Shown here piece after piece: positions 17,182 through 25,544 of a stretch of DNA of 64,000 nt. Source of the DNA: Escherichia phage FEC19; the sequence record MH816966, one strand, 5' to 3'. The translations under genes and the position numbers were made by a program. The number at the start of each line of letters is the position of its first letter. Position 1 is the stretch's first letter. The notes under the pieces were generated by a model that worked only from the letters and a program-made list of their open reading frames with translations, was not told where the DNA came from and ran no database searches.

Positions 17182-17733
17182 ATGCCACATTTTAAAATTG
17201 AACAAATCGCCCTGTCAATTCCAGATGCTCAGCGCGCACAGGATTTTCTGGCTAAAATCGGCCTGACAGAATGGTTCCATGATCATGTTGTTGCTACTGG
17301 TCGCGTATTTGAAGCTGATGACTTTAAAGGTCAGCGCGGCGATTGCACCAACGAAGCTGACTTGCGCTTCAACTATCAAGCTGGCAACGGCACCGATGGC
17401 GGCGCTGGTAAGCCTCTTGAACTTGAAATTCTTGACTACACGAAAGGCCGCAACTGGATTAACGAAAACATCGAATACATCGATGCACATGACAATCAGG
17501 TTAGCCATCTTGGTATGCACGTGACTGCCGCTGAACTTGCTGAATGGCGCAAGTTCTTTAAAGAAGAAGGCATTCAGGTTGCGCAGGAAGTTGTGACCGA
17601 CTCTCACACCAACCCAAACATTGCTGGTCAGCGTCGTTACAACTATGTGATCTTTGATACGCGTGAAATCATTGGTGTCGACCTTAAGTTCATCGTGCGG
17701 TTGAATCAAGACGGTACTCCGTACACTGTATAA
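17182..17733 (+). CDS. VOC/glyoxalase-fold protein (tentative)
   Basis: N-terminus HFKIEQIALSIPDAQRAQDFLAKIGLTEW has the glyoxalase/bleomycin-resistance-like pattern. Confidence 0.45.
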   Translation: MPHFKIEQIALSIPDAQRAQDFLAKIGLTEWFHDHVVATGRVFEADDFKGQRGDCTNEADLRFNYQAGNGTDGGAGKPLELEILDYTKGRNWINENIEYIDAHDNQVSHLGMHVTAAELAEWRKFFKEEGIQVAQEVVTDSHTNPNIAGQRRYNYVIFDTREIIGVDLKFIVRLNQDGTPYTV

Positions 17734-18330: not shown

Positions 18331-21227
18331 TGTTTCCACAATTGAGAGTTCGCAGCGGTTACACGTTCAAAGAAGTATATGGACGGCATCCTGAAATTAT
18401 AGCACGGCTCAAAGAGTTGGGCTGCGAAGTCGCGGCATTAGTTGATAACAATACATGGGGTCACGTTCGCTGGGAAAAGGAATGCCAGAAAAATGATATT
18501 AAGCCTATGTTCGGCATGGAGATTCCAATCATCGACCCTGATGCGGACCCGAAAAAGGGATTCAAACCGAAGGCTTGGATATTGGCGCTTGACCTGAAAT
18601 CCTTTTACAATGCGACCACGCTTGCAACACAGCGCGGCGGATTGACCCGTGCAGAGTTCGGGGCGCTGGATGGCGTCGTTAAATTCTGTGGCGGTGCCGT
18701 GGAGCTGCTGCGGCCAGAGGACTACGATTATATAGACGTCAACCCATCATCGTTCCTTTTGGCCAAGCGCCAGGTATTGGCTCACCGCAGCAACGGAAGG
18801 CCGCTGGTTTTAACCGGATACAACCACATGCCTTCACCTGAGCACGTTGACTTTGCTTATGCTTGGGAAGTGCGCGACACGGTTAAGCCGCACTGCATCG
18901 TTGACGCGGAAGACTTGCGCAAACAGCTTAAAGGAATCCTGACCGAAGATGAGTTGAATCAAGCAACGGCCAATGCGGTTGATATTGCAAACGGAATCGT
19001 TGGGCTTGACCTGAAGCTGCGCAAGGCACCGATTATCCACCTTGCTGGTGACATGGTAAAGCTTGCTCGTGAGGGGATGGAGTACCGCCTCAAAGCAGGT
19101 CACATCAAAGAATGGACGCAGGAATATGAGGACCGATTCAACGAAGAGATTCACCAGATTCAGCTGAAAGATTTCGACTCATACTTTCTGGTGGTAGCGG
19201 ACCTTGTACGATTTGCAAAAACAAAAATGCTCGTCGGACCCGCTCGCGGCTCATCGGCTGGTTCACTGGTTTGTTATTGCCTCGGCATCACGGAAGTTGA
19301 CCCAATCCCGTATAAGCTGCTATTTGCCCGATTCATCGACGTAAGCCGCGCCGACCTCCCTGATATTGATATTGACTTTGAGGACACCAAACGCTATATG
19401 GTGTTTGATTACCTCAAAGAAAAATACGGCGAAATGAACGTTGCAAAGCTTGGAAACATCAACACGCTTAAGGCCAACTCAGTAATGGCTCAGGTTGGTA
19501 AGAAGTTCAACATTGGATATCACGAAACGGCCAACATTAAAAACGCATTGCTTGAATACTCATCCGGTGACGCCCGTTATGGTCACGGTCTGGAGGATAC
19601 CTTTGCAACAACGACCACGGGCCAAGAGTTCGTGGCGAAATATCCTGACGCCGCGCGATGCATGGGTGACCTTGAGATTCACCCTTCTCACACTGGCGTT
19701 CATGCAGCGGGAATCATTGTGTGTAATGACCCAATCTCTGATTACTGTACTGTAACGGCGGAAGGGATTGCGCAAATTGATAAGCCTGACAGCGAATACC
19801 TTAACCTTTTGAAGCTTGATGCGTTGGGCCTTCGTACCCTCGGCATCATTTCTGATACTGGCGTGATAGATGCTGAAACGCTGTACGGAATCAAGCTTGA
19901 TGATCAAAGCGTCCTTGACATCCTTAACGAAAACAAAATGTCAGGCATCTTCCAGTTTGAAGGTGACGCTGTACGCTCAGTAACCAACTTTGTGCACGTT
20001 GATAACTTTAACAAAATCGATAACCTGACAGCACTTGGTCGACCTGGCCCGTTGTCATCCGGTATGGCCCAAAAATACATCGAACGCGCGGCAGGACGTG
20101 CGCCGATTGAGTACGACGTGCCGCAGCTTGAGCCGTACTTAAAAGAGACTTACGGCGTGTTCCTTTACCAAGAGCAAATCATGGCCGTGGTTAAAGAGAT
20201 TGGTTCATTTGACTGGGCGAAAACATCAGCCGTGCGTAAGGCGATGTCAGGTCGTAAGGGTGAGGAATACTTTAACAAGCTTGGCGAAGACTTCGTTGCA
20301 GGCGCAATAAATAACGGCGTACCGGAAGCGGATGCAAGAAAGCTTTGGCAGGCGATGGCGACGTTCGGGTCATGGGGCTTTAACAAGTCACACTCCGTGT
20401 CATACGCGGTCGTAACCTACTGGACCTTGTGGCTTAAACGACACTACCCGTTGGAATTTGCCGCTGCTTGCTTACGCGCTGCTAAGGACGAAGACCAGAC
20501 GATTGCGATATTACGTGAACTTGCGAAGGAAGGCGTGGATTATGTGCCAATCGACCCTGATCACTCTTCAATGAACTGGACCATCGCTAACGGAAAGCTA
20601 ATCGGCGGCATCATGAACGCTAAAGGGTACGGAATGGTGAAGGCGATGAAGTACATCGAAGCACGTGAAGCCGGAACCTTAACGCAAAAGCAGAAGGATG
20701 CATTGGCCAATGCTGAAGTCAAATACGGCGACCTTACAGAGATGCACACCAAGTTCGGCTGGGCATATAATGACCCATATCTTATTGGCGTCACTTCCGG
20801 CGCTTCAATACGCCAGATGAAGGAAGTAGGCGATGATGAGCGTGCAATAGTAATCGGCAAACTGACCAAGAAAGTGCTGGCAGACGAGAACGAAGCAACA
20901 CGCATCCGTAAACGTCTTGAGCGCGGCATTTACACAAAGCACGGCAAACTTAAAAAGGGTCTTCAAGCTGATGGTCGCTACGCAGAGTTTGACCAGTATG
21001 GAAACAAGCTTGAAACTCAATTCATCGACCTTATGTGCAAGGACGATTCGACCGACTCGCCAATGCGCTTCAGGATTCGCCCAGAGAAGTTCCAGAAATA
21101 CGGGAAGTACATTGCAGAGAACGTCGGGAACGGTGCATTCTTCCTGATGAAAGGCCGCAAGCTTGAAGGTATTGATATGTTCATCGTCGACGTTATCAAA
21201 CAGGTGTATCCAGATGGCAACAAATAA
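18330..21227 (+). CDS. DNA polymerase III alpha (DnaE)-like replicative polymerase
   Basis: 965 aa; PHP-like N-terminus and SHSVSYAVVTYWTLWLKRHYPLEFAAA segment; coupled to the exonuclease gene by TAATG. Confidence 0.9.
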   Translation: MFPQLRVRSGYTFKEVYGRHPEIIARLKELGCEVAALVDNNTWGHVRWEKECQKNDIKPMFGMEIPIIDPDADPKKGFKPKAWILALDLKSFYNATTLATQRGGLTRAEFGALDGVVKFCGGAVELLRPEDYDYIDVNPSSFLLAKRQVLAHRSNGRPLVLTGYNHMPSPEHVDFAYAWEVRDTVKPHCIVDAEDLRKQLKGILTEDELNQATANAVDIANGIVGLDLKLRKAPIIHLAGDMVKLAREGMEYRLKAGHIKEWTQEYEDRFNEEIHQIQLKDFDSYFLVVADLVRFAKTKMLVGPARGSSAGSLVCYCLGITEVDPIPYKLLFARFIDVSRADLPDIDIDFEDTKRYMVFDYLKEKYGEMNVAKLGNINTLKANSVMAQVGKKFNIGYHETANIKNALLEYSSGDARYGHGLEDTFATTTTGQEFVAKYPDAARCMGDLEIHPSHTGVHAAGIIVCNDPISDYCTVTAEGIAQIDKPDSEYLNLLKLDALGLRTLGIISDTGVIDAETLYGIKLDDQSVLDILNENKMSGIFQFEGDAVRSVTNFVHVDNFNKIDNLTALGRPGPLSSGMAQKYIERAAGRAPIEYDVPQLEPYLKETYGVFLYQEQIMAVVKEIGSFDWAKTSAVRKAMSGRKGEEYFNKLGEDFVAGAINNGVPEADARKLWQAMATFGSWGFNKSHSVSYAVVTYWTLWLKRHYPLEFAAACLRAAKDEDQTIAILRELAKEGVDYVPIDPDHSSMNWTIANGKLIGGIMNAKGYGMVKAMKYIEAREAGTLTQKQKDALANAEVKYGDLTEMHTKFGWAYNDPYLIGVTSGASIRQMKEVGDDERAIVIGKLTKKVLADENEATRIRKRLERGIYTKHGKLKKGLQADGRYAEFDQYGNKLETQFIDLMCKDDSTDSPMRFRIRPEKFQKYGKYIAENVGNGAFFLMKGRKLEGIDMFIVDVIKQVYPDGNK

Positions 21228-21636
21228 CCGCGAGCAAAAATACATATTCGTTCCTTTGAAGAAGCATTCAGAATCAATATTGAAGCTTCAACGAATCGAA
21301 TCGATGACTGGTGATGGCGTGCCGGACGTAATCGGCACCAACCGGAAAGGTCGCGGCTTTTGGCTTGAAATGAAGTTCTTTGAATCGTGGCCTGCAAGGG
21401 CCACCACTGCACCTTTCAGAAATGCATTTGAGAAAGGTCAGTGCAGCTTTCTTTCTTCGTGGAATGATTGGAAATACCCATCATTTGTTTTGCTTAAAGT
21501 CGATTCTGAGAAGATGTTTTATTTAGTCCACCCTTCGATTGAATTAAAGCGTTATAATATTGCAGACGTTCAACGTGAGATAATCGTGAAGGGAACTATT
21601 CACCACATCATTAAGTATTTAGAGGAATTGTCATGA
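21214..21636 (+). CDS. VRR-NUC-like nuclease
   Basis: GVPDVIGTNRKGRGFWLEMKF; start refined to MATNNREQKY; sits immediately upstream of the SNF2 helicase. Confidence 0.55.
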   Translation: MATNNREQKYIFVPLKKHSESILKLQRIESMTGDGVPDVIGTNRKGRGFWLEMKFFESWPARATTAPFRNAFEKGQCSFLSSWNDWKYPSFVLLKVDSEKMFYLVHPSIELKRYNIADVQREIIVKGTIHHIIKYLEELS

Positions 21637-23156
21637 AAACACAAGGGATGCGCCACCAGCTTCTGGCGCTTGATAAAGCAGGCCGCAGAAAATACTTTGC
21701 CTATTTCATGGAACAGGGTCTTGGTAAAACTTGGACCGCTTTGGCAGAGTTTGAAAAGCACTTCACCGCTGGCGCGTTCGATGCCATGGTAGTCATCGCT
21801 CCAAACGGTGTCCACTCAAACTGGATTCGTCGTGAAGCGCCAGAGCACCTTTCCATCAAGTGGATTGGGCACTACTGGCGCGGCAACGATAAGATGAAAA
21901 CTAAAAAGGGCAAGGCGCTTTGGGAGAAGATGTTTGCTGATCACTACCCCGAAGGCGAAGTGCCTGCGCGCATCTTCTCATTCAACATCGATACTGTCAA
22001 CACACCAGTCGGTTATCAACACATCGAGTCGGTCTTGAAGAAGTACCGCTGCCTGATGATCATCGACGAATCAACGCGCATCAAGAATAACACAGCCAAA
22101 CGCTCCATCAAGGTTGTGGAATTGGGACGGCTGGCAAAGGCCCGTCGAATCCTTTCTGGCACGCCGTTGCCGCGCTCGCCTGCGGATATTTACATGCAAT
22201 ACCACTTCCTTGAAGCAGGATTGCTCGGCACCAAATCATTCCGTGCCTTTAACTCTGAATTTACAGTGCTGCTTGAAGCGCACGACCCAGAGATGCAAGC
22301 CATCCTCAAGAAAATCGGCGGCAATGGCTATGGGATTCCGCAAGTGCCGCGCAAAGACCAGTTTGGCCGACCGATGTACAAGAACCTTGACAAGCTTATC
22401 CGGCTGATGGAACCGCACTATTTTCGTGCAACAAAAGCAGAATACTTGCCTGACCTTCCAGAGAAGGTGTACAAGTTTATTGACTTCGAGTTGTCGCCTA
22501 AACAACGCGATGTTTACGATGAACTCAAGAATGAGTACAACTATTTGATGGAATACAAGGGCGAAGAAGAAAACGTCAAGTTTGAGATGATCGCGTCGCG
22601 CACTAAGATGAAGCAGGTGACATCCGGCTTTGTTAAGGTGTATGATGAGATGGTCTACATGGAAGACAACCCACGATTCACGGCCTTTAAGGATTATGTG
22701 GAAGGTGTGCTGGAAGATGACCCAGAGCGCAAATTCATCGTTTGGGCCATCTTTAAGGAAGAGATGAACCAGATTAAGGACTGGCTTGAGTCTGAAGGCG
22801 TGGTCACTGGTGTATACAATGGTGAAACGTCCAAAGAGCAGCGAGAGTTCTTAATTGATGACTTCCAGAAGAATACAGTCGAGAACGGCGGAACGCAAGT
22901 CTTGGTTTGCCACGCTGCAGCGGCAGGCATCGGCATCACTCTTACCGCCGCTGACTTGGCAATTTATTATTCTTGCAACTACGACAACGAGCTGCGCAAA
23001 CAATCCGAAGACCGAAATCACCGCATCGGCACCAAATCAAGCGTGTTGTATGTTGATTTTATTGGTGTTGATACCATCGACGAAGAAATTCAGCGTTCAC
23101 TCAGTATGAAGTCAATGCTTGCTGATCACATCCTCGACGGCAAAAAGATGAATTAA
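21633..23156 (+). CDS. SNF2-family helicase
   Basis: LMIIDESTRIKN (DExx box), ILSGTPL, and a C-terminal helicase domain; ATGA overlap with the upstream gene. Confidence 0.85.
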   Translation: MKTQGMRHQLLALDKAGRRKYFAYFMEQGLGKTWTALAEFEKHFTAGAFDAMVVIAPNGVHSNWIRREAPEHLSIKWIGHYWRGNDKMKTKKGKALWEKMFADHYPEGEVPARIFSFNIDTVNTPVGYQHIESVLKKYRCLMIIDESTRIKNNTAKRSIKVVELGRLAKARRILSGTPLPRSPADIYMQYHFLEAGLLGTKSFRAFNSEFTVLLEAHDPEMQAILKKIGGNGYGIPQVPRKDQFGRPMYKNLDKLIRLMEPHYFRATKAEYLPDLPEKVYKFIDFELSPKQRDVYDELKNEYNYLMEYKGEEENVKFEMIASRTKMKQVTSGFVKVYDEMVYMEDNPRFTAFKDYVEGVLEDDPERKFIVWAIFKEEMNQIKDWLESEGVVTGVYNGETSKEQREFLIDDFQKNTVENGGTQVLVCHAAAAGIGITLTAADLAIYYSCNYDNELRKQSEDRNHRIGTKSSVLYVDFIGVDTIDEEIQRSLSMKSMLADHILDGKKMN

Positions 23157-23169
23157 TATCAAAAATAAT

Positions 23170-23198
23170 TTGACTTGTCACGGAAGATGAGTCATAAT
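23170..23198 (+). promoter_or_regulatory. sigma70-like promoter
   Basis: TTGACT-17-CATAAT followed by the TCATCGAAACGAA leader motif also seen at 16271-16284. Confidence 0.5.
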
Positions 23199-23230: not shown

Positions 23231-23494
23231 ATGGTACGCATCCTTGAACGTTACAAAAATGAAGCTACTGGCGCAATCGCGTTCAAACGTCTTTTGGTCA
23301 AAGAAATTGACGGTATGTTCCGCGTTGTAAAAGAGTTTGATTATGGCAACGGTGCTGGGGTGAATACCGTAATTATGCCTGGCATCAAGGCATATAAGAC
23401 TTTAAAAGGCGCTGAGAAGGCTTTGGCGGCTTGGAAACCTGAACGTTATCAAATGACCCGTGTTGAAGGGCTAATGCAAGAAGGTAAAATATGA
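23231..23494 (+). CDS. hypothetical protein (87 aa)
   Basis: ORF downstream of a TTGACT-17-CATAAT promoter. Confidence 0.45.
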   Translation: MVRILERYKNEATGAIAFKRLLVKEIDGMFRVVKEFDYGNGAGVNTVIMPGIKAYKTLKGAEKALAAWKPERYQMTRVEGLMQEGKI

Positions 23495-24048
23495 GCAATA
23501 TTAATTGGGAAGATGATTTGCCGCAGGTTGCTCCTGAGAGCATTCAGGAGCGTCTTGCGCGCTTAGTATCTGAATTGGCAGAGCGCCAAGAAGCTTTGAC
23601 AGAGCTTGAAGATGAAGCTGATATGCAAAAGCAGCGCATCAGTGAAATCAAAACTGTTCTGCTTCCTGGCGTTATGGATGAGCTTGGCGTGTCCGAAATC
23701 AAGCTTGAAGACAAGACCAAAATCAAGGTCGAGTCAAAAGTAAACGCTTCAATCAAGAAAGAAAATGAATTGAAGGTATTCGATTGGCTTGTCAACAATG
23801 GTTACGGCGGCTTGATCAAGTCCAGCGTCACGGCTGAGTTCGGTCGCGAAGAAATCGAGCAAGCGCAAGAGATTGTTGCCGCGCTGCGTGAAGATGGTGT
23901 TGAAGCCACGTTGAAACAAGGCGTTCATTCTGCTACACTGAAGTCGTTTGTAAAAGAACAGCTGGAAGCGGGCAATCCAGTTAGTGAAGATATTAGCGTT
24001 TTTGAATACAAAGAAGCTAAAATAACCTTGCCTAAAAGCAAAAAGTAA
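23491..24048 (+). CDS. hypothetical coiled-coil protein (185 aa)
   Basis: Acidic, heptad-like N-terminus; sits just upstream of the SSB-like gene. Confidence 0.45.
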   Translation: MSNINWEDDLPQVAPESIQERLARLVSELAERQEALTELEDEADMQKQRISEIKTVLLPGVMDELGVSEIKLEDKTKIKVESKVNASIKKENELKVFDWLVNNGYGGLIKSSVTAEFGREEIEQAQEIVAALREDGVEATLKQGVHSATLKSFVKEQLEAGNPVSEDISVFEYKEAKITLPKSKK

Positions 24049-24107: not shown

Positions 24108-24968
24108 ATGTCTAAGAAAGAAACCACCGAAGTTGCAGTGAAAAACACCCAGATGTCCGCTATGGCTGATTTTGTCGACATGACCGATTTTGGCGCTGGT
24201 TTTGAAGGTGCCGATGCCGATGCGTATGCCATTCCTTTTATCGTCGTACTGCAGAAGATGTCTCCTATGGTCGACGAAGATGATCCAAAACACGTTCCTG
24301 GCGCAAAGGCTGGCATGCTTTACAACACCGTTACTGGTGAGTTGTATGACGGCAAGAAAGGCGTGCAGATCATCCCTTGCGCATTCAAACGCACCTTCAT
24401 TCTTTGGGGCGGTCGCGAGTCCGACGATAAAGGCTTTAAAGGTGAATTCACCAAAGAGCACGTTGATGCAGAAGTCGCGGCAGGCCGCGCTGTTGAGATC
24501 AACGGTAAGGTATTCGTGCCGGACGAAAACGGCAAGGTGCACGAGAAGAAATCTCCTTACTACGCAGATACACGCAACCACTTCGTAATTCTGTTGAACG
24601 AAGAAACTGGTGAATTTGGTAGCGCAATGCTGTCTCTGACTTCTTCCATGATCAAGCCGTCTCGCATGCTGATGACCGCTCTGCAGCAGAAGAAAGTTCA
24701 GACTCCGCAGGGTCTGAAAACGCCGCCGACCTTTATGAACATCGTTCGCATGGGTACTGCATCCCAGTCCAAAGACGGCAACACCTGGTCTGTTCTGAAG
24801 TTTGAGCTGGAAGGTCTGGTGCAGGACAAAGGCCTGTACGAAGTCGCCAAGGCATTCCACAACGACGTAGTGGGCGGTAACGTTAACATCGACCGCAGCA
24901 AGCAGGAAGAAGCAAGCGGTGCCGCTGGTCCTGTCAATGAAACTCCTACCGACGCAGAAGAGTTTTAA
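24108..24968 (+). CDS. putative ssDNA-binding protein
   Basis: Acidic C-terminal tail ending in Phe (ETPTDAEEF), as in T7 gp2.5 and bacterial SSBs; AGGAAAA RBS. Confidence 0.45.
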   Translation: MSKKETTEVAVKNTQMSAMADFVDMTDFGAGFEGADADAYAIPFIVVLQKMSPMVDEDDPKHVPGAKAGMLYNTVTGELYDGKKGVQIIPCAFKRTFILWGGRESDDKGFKGEFTKEHVDAEVAAGRAVEINGKVFVPDENGKVHEKKSPYYADTRNHFVILLNEETGEFGSAMLSLTSSMIKPSRMLMTALQQKKVQTPQGLKTPPTFMNIVRMGTASQSKDGNTWSVLKFELEGLVQDKGLYEVAKAFHNDVVGGNVNIDRSKQEEASGAAGPVNETPTDAEEF

Positions 24969-24987
24969 TCGACAATCAAATCAACAA

Positions 24988-25013
24988 GGCTGCCGATTGG
25001 CGGCCTTTTATTT
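24988..25013 (+). terminator. rho-independent terminator
   Basis: GGCTGCC-GATT-GGCGGCC followed by TTTTATTT. Confidence 0.6.
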
Positions 25014-25025
25014 ATCTGGTGCATC

Positions 25026-25544
25026 ATGATAGAAAGAATTGTACCGCTCTTGAAGATTCTGGCCCTTGTTGGCGCGTTTGCCGCTGGATCATACGTTGAA
25101 GACCTGCAGCAAACCAACGCATCACTGGCCAAGGATAATCAATATCTGACATCGCTTAATGAGCGTAAGGACAAGATAAATGCACTCGAAGAGCAAATTG
25201 CATCTTTACAGGTTGAATCGGCATCGGCATATGAGAAAGGTCGCCAGGAAGCGCAACTGGTTGCTGATGACACTATTGCTCGTTACAAGTCTGGGAATAT
25301 CAAGTTGCGCGCGCAACTCAGCTGCTCCCGTGAGTTACTCAGGAGTATGCCCGACTCTGCGACCACTGGACGCCTCTCTATCCCAGAAGGAAACTGTGGA
25401 CTATCAGAAGAAGATGTCAGTTTTCTTGTTCAGTTCGCCGCAGAAACAAATCGATTAAAAGAGAAAGTTAATAGCTTGATTGATACTTATAATCAGGCTA
25501 AAATAAAAATCGATCAATTCAATGCATCAAAGGAAAATAAATGA
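25026..25544 (+). CDS. i-spanin (Rz-like)
   Basis: N-terminal TM helix IVPLLKILALVGAFAAGSYV followed by a long coiled coil; embedded lipoprotein ORF in the +1 frame. Confidence 0.6.
   Translation: MIERIVPLLKILALVGAFAAGSYVEDLQQTNASLAKDNQYLTSLNERKDKINALEEQIASLQVESASAYEKGRQEAQLVADDTIARYKSGNIKLRAQLSCSRELLRSMPDSATTGRLSIPEGNCGLSEEDVSFLVQFAAETNRLKEKVNSLIDTYNQAKIKIDQFNASKENK
25231..25458 (+). CDS. o-spanin (Rz1-like lipoprotein) embedded in the i-spanin gene
   Basis: MRKVARKRNWLLMTLLLVTSLGISSC signal with lipobox ISSC, then a Pro-rich mature part. Confidence 0.5.
   Translation: MRKVARKRNWLLMTLLLVTSLGISSCARNSAAPVSYSGVCPTLRPLDASLSQKETVDYQKKMSVFLFSSPQKQID

What the first reader, a model, noticed from the sequence alone, without database searches (positions are those of the whole stretch)
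24108..24968. SSB-like protein recognised only by its acidic Phe-terminated tail
The C-terminus ETPTDAEEF matches the acidic tail ending in an aromatic residue that mediates partner binding in T7 gp2.5 and bacterial SSBs. The body of the protein has no motif I can recognise, so it could be a divergent ssDNA-binding or annealing protein.
Basis: partly seen in the sequence, partly recalled or inferred. Interest (0 to 1): 0.35.

Follow-up and report, generated by a model that had tools for sequence, protein, structure and literature searches.

The report
Unannotated phage ssDNA-binding protein candidate
This gene of an E. coli phage, labelled "hypothetical" in almost all of the roughly 500 phage genomes that carry it, most likely encodes the phage's missing single-stranded-DNA-binding protein, with a conserved acidic tail ending in phenylalanine that probably docks other replication proteins.

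Summary
ORF 24108-24968 (+, 286 aa) ends in ETPTDAEEF. All 119 full-length close homologues end in Phe, with the tip P-x-[DE]-A-[DE]-x-F after a variable, disordered linker.

The window is a Wifcevirus (PB1-like E. coli myophage). The protein belongs to Pfam PF23977 (Pam3 gp34-like, function unknown), a family of at least 4,800 clusters.

No sequence or profile link to gp2.5, gp3 or bacterial SSB was found. No other SSB was found in the window or in Wifcevirus or Pbunavirus annotations.

The gene always follows a coiled-coil partner, DUF7307 (74 of 77 loci), and usually an SNF2 helicase. In some distant phages a canonical SSB lies next door, so the role may be specialised rather than that of the general SSB.

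One GenBank record already calls a 29%-identical homologue "gp32-like ssDNA-binding protein".

This is a new member of a known kind, of moderate interest.

The parts
24108..24968 (+). gp34-like ORF, 286 aa including the stop codon. It is the candidate ssDNA-binding protein.
   Evidence: ORF list and sequence. Pfam PF23977 at 4e-86 and PHROG 2402 of unknown function.
24108..24227 (+). N-terminal region, aa 1-40. It is acidic, of low to medium model confidence, and carries the conserved motif DFG-x-GFEG-x-D-x-D-[SA]-[FY]-AIPF, which leads into the first core strand.
   Evidence: Alignment A1. Block pLDDT values of 35, 51, 71 and 59. Net charge -5.
24228..24887 (+). Folded core, aa 41-260. Its OB-type order is strand 86-100, an inserted subdomain, strands 151-163 and 170-178, helix 179-194, then strands 211-222 and 225-237.
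24888..24944 (+). Variable linker, aa 261-279, rich in Ser, Gly, Ala, Glu and Asp and predicted to be disordered.
   Evidence: Low pLDDT. Length and sequence variation in A1.
24945..24965 (+). C-terminal tip PTDAEEF. The family motif is P-x-[DE]-A-[DE]-x-F at the free carboxyl end.
23491..24048 (+). DUF7307 / Pam3 gp33-like ORF, 185 aa. It has a long N-terminal helix, a small alpha/beta domain and a basic C-terminus. It is the obligate upstream partner gene.
   Evidence: Pfam PF23984 at 3e-37. Immediately upstream on the same strand in 74 of 77 viral loci. AlphaFold2 model with helix 18-65. Annotated as Mu Gam-like in two GenBank records.
23231..23494 (+). 87-aa ORF, the first gene of the apparent transcription unit. 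In my loci it was found only in the closest (Wifcevirus) relatives.
   Evidence: PHROG 27467 of unknown function. Detected only in loci L008-L010.
21633..23156 (+). SNF2-family helicase or translocase, usually encoded just upstream of the gene pair.
   Evidence: Pfam SNF2-rel_dom plus Helicase_C. Present upstream in 61 of 77 loci.
23170..23198 (+). Sigma-70-like promoter match, TTGACT-17-CATAAT, ahead of the 87-aa ORF.
   Evidence: Consensus scan, 10 of 12 positions. This is a pattern match only.
24986..25017 (+). Intrinsic-terminator-like hairpin with a 9-bp stem (6 G-C pairs) and a TTATTTATCT tail, 18 nt after the stop codon.
   Evidence: A terminator is also annotated after the homologue in YuA and under the matching region of phage WFC.

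Best explanation
The gene most likely encodes a divergent OB-fold single-stranded-DNA-binding protein of the phage replication and recombination module.

The proposed mechanism has three parts. The neutral, folded core (aa about 41-260) would bind ssDNA on the OB surface, which carries invariant Trp, Arg and His residues. A flexible acidic linker would present the conserved tip P-x-[DE]-A-[DE]-x-F. The terminal Phe and its carboxylate would dock into a pocket on a partner. The likeliest partner is a phage replisome protein such as the PolIII-alpha-type polymerase or a helicase. This is how the tails of T7 gp2.5, E. coli SSB and T4 gp32 recruit their partners.

The protein would act together with its obligate neighbour DUF7307, a coiled-coil and possibly Mu-Gam-like protein. 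It would usually also act with the SNF2 translocase encoded upstream. In Wifcevirus and Pbunavirus, where no other SSB is encoded, it is probably the replicative SSB.

What is shown: the ORF, the family, tail conservation, the predicted fold and its neighbours, the synteny, and the absence of another recognisable SSB. What is inferred: ssDNA binding, tail-mediated recruitment, the identity of the partner, and the replicative role.
For: 2. Tail. The terminal Phe is invariant and the tip motif is conserved after a variable, disordered linker. Twenty-three distant members end in [IVAM]-P-F, for example DDIPF, like the bacterial SSB tip.
3. Context. The gene lies in the replication module, between the PolIII-alpha, exonuclease and SNF2 genes and the MazG and ligase genes.
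4. Vacancy. No SSB is annotated anywhere in Bas99 or vB_Eco4M-7. None was found among 10 unassigned ORFs, or by phmmer with three SSBs, gp2.5 and gp3 against all window ORFs. A 2025 description of the Pbunavirus replication machinery lists no SSB.
6. Strong conservation. Identity is 50-60% across phages of Escherichia, Pseudomonas, Burkholderia and Xanthomonas. A promoter-like site and a strong terminator-like hairpin flank the three-gene unit.

Against: No sequence or profile relationship to gp2.5, gp3 or bacterial SSB was detected. The zinc site of gp32 and gp3 is absent, since the only Cys is not conserved.

In Vibrio phage H2, in Klebsiella phage K21lambda1 and in 9 of 77 metagenomic loci, a canonical SSB is encoded right beside the pair. 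There the protein cannot simply be 'the' SSB.

The strict pairing with DUF7307 has no counterpart in known SSB systems. One GenBank record calls a homologue 'primase' and another 'putative holin'. I judge both to be errors, because neither fits the fold or the composition.
Confidence: 0.6

Rival explanations
1. It is a specialised ssDNA-binding, annealing or mediator protein rather than the general replicative SSB. In this reading it would be functionally gp2.5-like, or comparable to RPA working with SMARCAL1. It would work as a fixed module with DUF7307 (possibly a Gam/Ku-like dsDNA-end binder) and the SNF2 translocase. The module would process DNA ends or stalled forks for recombination-dependent replication or end protection.
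For: DUF7307 is immediately upstream in 74 of 77 loci, and the other three loci are cut at that edge. An SNF2 helicase is upstream in 61 of 77 loci. A canonical SSB is encoded next to the pair in several lineages. A RecB/exonuclease V-like gene follows the pair in Yuavirus phages and was detected in two metagenomic loci, directly downstream in one. DUF7307 is annotated as Mu Gam-like by two independent groups.
Confidence: 0.27
2. It is an OB-fold adaptor or decoy whose main job is protein binding. The SSB-like tip would compete with host SSB for the host proteins that normally bind the SSB tip (chi, PriA, RecQ, ExoI, RecO). That would redirect or block host DNA metabolism, or counter a defence system, without coating ssDNA.
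For: Distant members carry tips like the host SSB tip (D-D-I-P-F) even when a canonical SSB with the same tip is encoded next door. The closest solved structure, phiC31 gp3, also works as a protein-binding cofactor of an integrase.
Against: The Wifcevirus and Pbunavirus tip (A-[DE]-x-F) lacks the Ile-Pro of the host motif. From general knowledge of SSB-tip interactions, not tested here, that Pro matters for binding host partners. The core is very strongly conserved, with invariant aromatic and basic residues, as expected of a nucleic-acid-binding surface. The gene sits in the replication operon, not among early host-takeover genes.
Confidence: 0.08
3. It has no role in DNA metabolism and is, for example, a holin, a structural protein or a primase, as a few database records state.
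For: The phiLCL12 homologue is named 'putative holin'. The PADD homologue is named 'primase'.
Against: The protein is hydrophilic, and the model shows no long hydrophobic helix that could span a membrane. Pfam detects no domain other than PF23977, so no primase domain, and no primase appears among the structural matches. The gene lies outside the structural module. The real primases are annotated elsewhere in the genome.
Confidence: 0.03

Closest known systems
Gp3-like family (Pfam PF18897) of Streptomyces phages: phiC31 gp3 and, per PMC11795197, the similar TG1 gp25. These act as recombination directionality factors and also as SSBs.
   Different: No sequence or profile similarity was found (hhalign probability below 1%). 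The zinc-binding Cys/His cluster is missing. gp3 has no acidic Phe tail, since it ends ...NDAIAD; the paper instead predicts that an N-terminal peptide makes the contacts. Wifcevirus genome records carry no annotated integrase for such a cofactor to act on.
T7 gp2.5, an SSB and annealing protein
   Same: Both are predicted or known OB-fold proteins with an acidic C-terminal tail ending in Phe: T7 ...EEADEDGDF against ...ETPTDAEEF here. Sizes are similar (232 and 286 aa). Both are encoded among the replication genes of a virulent coliphage.
T4 / RB69 gp32
   Different: There is no zinc site. The structural score is weak, and Pfam reports no family other than PF23977 for this protein. From general knowledge, the gp32 tail does not end in Phe.
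Bacterial-type SSB (Pfam PF00436), including the phage copies in Vibrio phage H2 and Klebsiella phage K21lambda1
   Different: No HMM or phmmer match was found. The core is about twice as large. The two proteins coexist side by side in some phages, so they are not interchangeable.

Membership tests
Pfam PF23977 (Pam3_Gp34, function unknown) | Match to the family HMM above the gathering score of 27 bits | tested here: met
   289.1 bits, E 4.2e-86, covering profile positions 3-234 of 235. Also PHROG 2402 at 3.6e-105.
Pfam PF23977 (Pam3_Gp34, function unknown) | Adjacent gp33-like (DUF7307, PF23984) gene, as the Pam3 gene numbering implies | tested here: met
   PF23984 at 2.6e-37 for ORF 23491-24048. 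Immediately upstream on the same strand in 74 of 77 loci.
Bacterial-type SSB (PF00436) | Sequence match to the SSB OB domain | tested here: not met
   No Pfam hit other than PF23977. phmmer with E. coli, H2 and K21lambda1 SSBs finds nothing in the window.
Bacterial-type SSB (PF00436) | OB-fold core | tested here: met
Bacterial-type SSB (PF00436) | Disordered linker ending in the acidic tip D-D-D-I-P-F | tested here: inconclusive
   A disordered acidic tail ending in F is present. Here the tip is D-A-E-E-F, without Ile-Pro. Twenty-three distant family members do end in x-P-F.
Bacterial-type SSB (PF00436) | Homotetramer that wraps ssDNA | not testable with these tools
   Only a single-chain prediction was available.
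T7 gp2.5-like SSB/annealase | Sequence or profile similarity to gp2.5 | tested here: not met
   hhalign of A1 against gp2.5 gives probability 0.1%. phmmer gives no hit.
T7 gp2.5-like SSB/annealase | Acidic C-terminal tail with an essential terminal Phe | tested here: met
   The terminal Phe is invariant in 119 of 119 close homologues, with acidic residues at positions -3 and -5. Essentiality was not tested.
T7 gp2.5-like SSB/annealase | ssDNA binding and strand annealing | not testable with these tools
   This needs biochemistry.
Gp3-like directionality factor / SSB (PF18897) | Match to the family HMM or profile | tested here: not met
   The Pfam scan gives only PF23977. hhalign of 263 family members against 120 gp3 homologues gives probability 0.4%.
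Gp3-like directionality factor / SSB (PF18897) | Shared fold | tested here: met
Gp3-like directionality factor / SSB (PF18897) | Zinc-binding Cys/His cluster in the OB core | tested here: not met
   The protein has a single Cys (C91), and it is not conserved.
T4 gp32 family | Zinc-containing OB core and sequence match | tested here: not met
Mu Gam / Ku-like end-binding proteins (tested for the partner DUF7307) | Profile similarity to Mu Gam | tested here: inconclusive
   hhalign probabilities are 0.8% and 0.6%. Even so, the same segment aligns each time and the overall layout matches: a long N-terminal helix followed by a small alpha/beta domain. Two GenBank records call it Mu Gam-like. No fold search was left to run on this model.

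The most novel reading that the evidence does not exclude
The SNF2 translocase, DUF7307 and the gp34-like protein together form a widespread, undescribed three-part phage machine for DNA ends or stalled forks. A Gam/Ku-like coiled-coil dimer would hold the double-strand end or junction. The OB-fold protein would coat the adjacent single strand. Its SSB-type tip would bring in the phage polymerase, or in lineages with D-D-I-P-F tips the host proteins that bind the SSB tip. The machine would be distinct from, and additional to, the ordinary SSB.
Probability: 0.2. Interest if true: 0.65.

Novelty: new member of a known kind. Interest (0 to 1): 0.42.

Why it matters
[quoted passage not shown] Wifcevirus phages are reported to replicate unusually fast. 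Published descriptions of their replication machinery list a polymerase, exonuclease, primase, helicases and ligase but no SSB. This gene is the obvious candidate for that missing part.
- **Scale.** The family has at least 4,800 clusters at 50% identity and occurs in 509 phage records. Almost all of those I inspected call it hypothetical.
- **A testable handle.** The conserved Phe-terminated tip could be used to find the protein's binding partners.
- **An open question.** The strict pairing with DUF7307, and co-occurrence with canonical SSBs in some phages, hint at a role beyond simply coating ssDNA.

Tried and rejected
- **PDB by sequence.** Neither the single sequence nor the family profile found anything. 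The same was true of the DUF7307 profile.
- **Profile comparisons.** hhalign of the family against T7 gp2.5, against phiC31 gp3 alone, and against a 120-sequence gp3 alignment were all negative. I therefore claim resemblance in function and fold, not homology or membership.
- **Other libraries.** NCBIfam and PADLOC gave no hit for either protein of the pair.
- **Search for another SSB or annealase in the window.** Pfam and PHROGs scans of 10 unassigned ORFs found none. phmmer with five query proteins against all ORFs of 50 aa or more also found none.
- **Literature.** No paper mentions PF23977, DUF7307 or PHROG 2402. I found no paper linking Pbunavirus or Wifcevirus to an SSB.
- **DUF7307 against Mu Gam.** The comparisons were not significant.
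- **Internal '...D-x-D-S-F-A-I-P-F' motif.** I considered whether this N-terminal motif is a second SSB-like tip. In the model it runs straight into the first core strand (residues 44-47), so I dropped the idea.
- **'Holin' and 'primase' labels.** I rejected both, because neither fits the composition, the fold or the genome position.
- **Tail type against polymerase type.** A[DE]xF tails go with PolIII-alpha (30 of 30 loci where a polymerase was seen). xPF tails go with PolA (4 of 5). The pattern is real but confounded by phylogeny, so it is not evidence for the partner's identity.

Full report
**1. The observation**

It runs from an ATG at 24108 to a stop codon at 24966-24968 on the + strand. 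It is 286 aa long and ends ...GPVNETPTDAEEF. An AGGA ribosome-binding site lies 9 nt upstream of the ATG.

The window is 98% identical to Escherichia phage vB_EcoM_WFC and other Wifcevirus myophages. The literature describes these as distant relatives of the Pseudomonas PB1-like Pbunavirus genus.

**2. The tail is a conserved motif, not a chance feature**

- Of the 120 closest database relatives, all 119 full-length proteins end in Phe. The one exception is a fragment.
- Within this set, Ala is at position -4 in 115 of 120, Asp or Glu at -3 in 115 of 120, and Pro at -7 in 93 of 120. The tip is therefore P-x-[DE]-A-[DE]-x-F at the free carboxyl end.
- The 15-20 residues before the tip vary in length and sequence. 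They are of low confidence in the structure model.
- A profile search of 1.84 billion cluster representatives found 4,801 family members.
- Among 263 members of usable length, 228 end in Phe and 251 in a hydrophobic residue. They average 2.4 acidic and 0.6 basic residues in the last eight.
- Twenty-three of the distant members end in [I/V/A/M]-P-F, for example ...DADDIPF...ENDDIPF and ...DMDEEIPF. That is the tip seen in the canonical SSBs of Vibrio phage H2 and Klebsiella phage K21lambda1, which end ...PPMDFDDDIPF.

A conserved tip at the end of a variable, disordered acidic linker is the hallmark of SSB-type recruitment tails. That statement rests on established knowledge of E. coli SSB, T7 gp2.5 and T4 gp32.

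**3. What the body of the protein is**

By sequence, the protein matches only the uncharacterised Pfam family PF23977 'Pam3 gp34-like' (E 4e-86) and PHROG 2402 'unknown function'. Nothing in the PDB matches by sequence or by profile. NCBIfam and PADLOC give no hit.

An AlphaFold2 model built on 75 homologues is confident. Mean pLDDT is 85.7, and the ten-residue blocks covering residues 41-260 score 90-98. Its element order is:

- strand 86-100;
- an inserted subdomain;
- strands 151-163 and 170-178;
- helix 179-194;
- strands 211-222 and 225-237.

I read this as the canonical OB order of three strands, a helix and two more strands.

Against predicted viral structures (BFVD) there are 32 hits at E <= 0.001. 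Most are uncharacterised phage proteins. One of them is named 'Single-stranded DNA-binding protein'. Weaker hits, at E between 0.007 and 0.014, include proteins named 'DNA binding protein', a second 'Single-stranded DNA-binding protein' and 'Recombination directionality factor'.

The top hit carries functional weight. The paper PMC11795197 states that the TG1 directionality factor is similar to those of phiC31 and phiBT1. It shows by gel shift that the TG1 protein binds ssDNA and not dsDNA, and it concludes that the protein is an SSB with a second job.

The resemblance is at the level of fold only. hhalign of the family against T7 gp2.5, against gp3, and against a 120-sequence gp3 alignment gave probabilities below 1%. 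The zinc-binding cluster of gp32 and gp3 is absent, because the single Cys is not conserved. gp3 also lacks an acidic Phe tail.

**4. Genomic context**

The gene lies in the replication block. The order is: DEDDh exonuclease, PolIII-alpha-type polymerase, a small ORF, SNF2 helicase (21633-23156), an 87-aa ORF, DUF7307 (23491-24048), this gene, spanins, a MazG-like gene, and an ATP-dependent ligase.

A promoter-like site at 23170-23198 and a strong terminator-like hairpin at 24986-25007 bracket the last three genes. A terminator is also annotated after the YuA homologue.

No SSB could be found elsewhere:

- none is annotated anywhere in Bas99 or in the vB_Eco4M-7 region;
- ten unassigned ORFs gave no SSB or annealase family;
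- phmmer with three bacterial-type SSBs, gp2.5 and gp3 found nothing among all ORFs of the window;
- a 2025 account of the Pbunavirus replication machinery lists polymerase, exonuclease, primase, ligase, three helicases or translocases and a resolvase, but no SSB.

The SSB slot is therefore vacant in this phage group.

**5. An obligate partner, and a complication**

In 77 related viral loci, a DUF7307 (PF23984) gene lies immediately upstream on the same strand in 74. The other three loci are cut at that edge. This holds down to about 29% identity. An SNF2 helicase lies upstream in 61 of 77 loci.

The DUF7307 model shows one long helix (residues 18-65) followed by a small alpha/beta domain of moderate confidence. 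The protein ends in a basic stretch...AKITLPKSKK. Two GenBank records annotate it as 'Mu Gam-like end protection protein' or 'DNA ends-protecting protein, Mu-like'. My own profile comparisons with a Mu Gam alignment were not significant, although the same segment aligned each time. I had no fold search left for this model.

The complication is that some distant phages encode a canonical SSB directly beside the pair:

- in Vibrio phage H2 the order is helicase, gp33-like, gp34-like, SSB, PolA;
- Klebsiella phage K21lambda1 is similar;
- in 9 of 77 metagenomic loci a canonical SSB is adjacent, and there the gp34-like tail itself ends in -IPF.

In Yuavirus phages a RecB/exonuclease V-like gene follows the pair. 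So across the family the protein is not simply a substitute for SSB. It may have a more specialised job together with DUF7307 and the SNF2 translocase.

Tail type tracks polymerase type. A[DE]xF tails go with PolIII-alpha in 30 of 30 loci where a polymerase was seen, and xPF tails go with PolA in 4 of 5. This is confounded by phylogeny, so I do not use it as evidence for the partner.

**6. Independent support and prior knowledge**

Of 509 phage records with a homologue, every one of the 60 listed rows that carries an annotation says 'hypothetical' or 'unknown function'. I found three exceptions elsewhere:

- Phage PADD: 'primase'.
- Phage phiLCL12: 'putative holin'.

I regard the last two as errors. 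The protein is hydrophilic and has an OB fold, and Pfam reports no domain other than PF23977, so no primase domain. No paper in the searchable library mentions the Pfam or PHROG identifiers.

**7. Most likely mechanism**

This is an OB-fold ssDNA-binding protein of the replication and recombination module. The core would bind ssDNA; the invariant W100, R156, H158 and W227 are candidate contacts, by inference only. The acidic linker would keep the tip mobile. The terminal Phe and its carboxylate would dock on a partner protein, as in gp2.5, SSB and gp32. In Wifcevirus and Pbunavirus it is probably the replicative SSB.

I put 0.6 on this explanation. The rivals are:

- 0.27 that it is a specialised ssDNA-binding, annealing or mediator factor working as a fixed module with DUF7307 and SNF2;
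- 0.08 that it is mainly a protein-binding adaptor or decoy with an SSB-like tip;
- 0.03 that it has nothing to do with DNA.

Nothing here is experimental. ssDNA binding, the tail's partner and the role of DUF7307 are all inferred.

**8. Novelty and score**

Divergent phage SSBs with OB folds and acidic tails are a known kind. At least one annotator has already called a distant homologue gp32-like. This is therefore a new member of a known kind, not a new kind.

It still has value. It fills a gap in the replication machinery of therapeutically used phages. It gives a function to a very large 'hypothetical' family. It also exposes an unexplained obligate partnership.

Interest is 0.42. The most novel reading not excluded is a three-part machine for DNA ends or stalled forks, made of the SNF2 translocase, a Gam-like protein and this SSB-like protein. 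I give that reading a probability of 0.2.

Noticed in passing
window 23491-24048 (+): DUF7307 (Pam3 gp33-like) is the obligate upstream neighbour of the gene (74 of 77 loci). It has a long N-terminal helix and a basic C-terminus (AKITLPKSKK), opposite in charge to the acidic tail of its neighbour. Two GenBank records call it Mu Gam-like, but my profile comparisons with Mu Gam were not significant.
   Followed up: partly
window 21633-23156 (+): An SNF2-family translocase is encoded upstream of the pair in 61 of 77 related loci, which suggests a conserved three-gene module. A 2025 Pbunavirus paper notes that its fold resembles chromatin remodellers rather than unwinding helicases.
   Followed up: partly
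L086 6744-7220 (Vibrio phage H2); L087 10126-10461 (Klebsiella phage K21lambda1); loci L056-L068: In these distant relatives a canonical SSB ending in ...DFDDDIPF is encoded next to the gp33/gp34-like pair. In the nine metagenomic loci the gp34-like protein itself ends in -IPF, so two proteins with the same kind of tip coexist.
   Followed up: partly
window 25026-25544 (+), with 25180-25458 (+) embedded: An Rz-like i-spanin with an embedded o-spanin (lipobox LGISSC) sits inside the replication module, between the SSB candidate and the MazG-like gene. It is about 3 kb from the endolysin gene.
   Followed up: no
window 24986-25017 (+): A strong intrinsic-terminator-like hairpin lies 18 nt after the stop codon. 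A promoter-like site at 23170-23198 precedes the 87-aa ORF. Together they suggest that the 87-aa ORF, DUF7307 and the gp34-like gene form one transcription unit.
   Followed up: partly
window 21163-21636 (+): A 157-aa ORF starts inside the 3' end of the polymerase gene and ends 4 nt into the SNF2 gene. PHROGs labels it 'DNA helicase' (phrog_2165). The Pbunavirus paper describes a Holliday-junction resolvase gene next to the SNF2 gene, which is probably this one. It co-occurs with PolIII-alpha in nearly all related loci.
   Followed up: no
L088 5587-6486 (Pseudomonas phage PADD); protein P0084 (phage phiLCL12): Homologues of the SSB candidate are annotated 'primase' and 'putative holin' in public records. 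Both labels look like mis-annotations.
   Followed up: partly
window 24168-24239 (+), aa 21-44: The N-terminal motif DFG-x-GFEG-x-D-x-D-[SA]-[FY]-A-I-P-F is nearly invariant and superficially resembles an SSB tip (D-x-D-...-I-P-F). In the model it runs into the first core strand, so it is probably structural. A role in self-association is not excluded.
   Followed up: no
window 17182-17733 (+): A 183-aa ORF upstream of the exonuclease and polymerase genes has a weak, sub-threshold Pfam match to the glyoxalase/bleomycin-resistance fold (E 8e-4). It matches no PHROG family.
   Followed up: no
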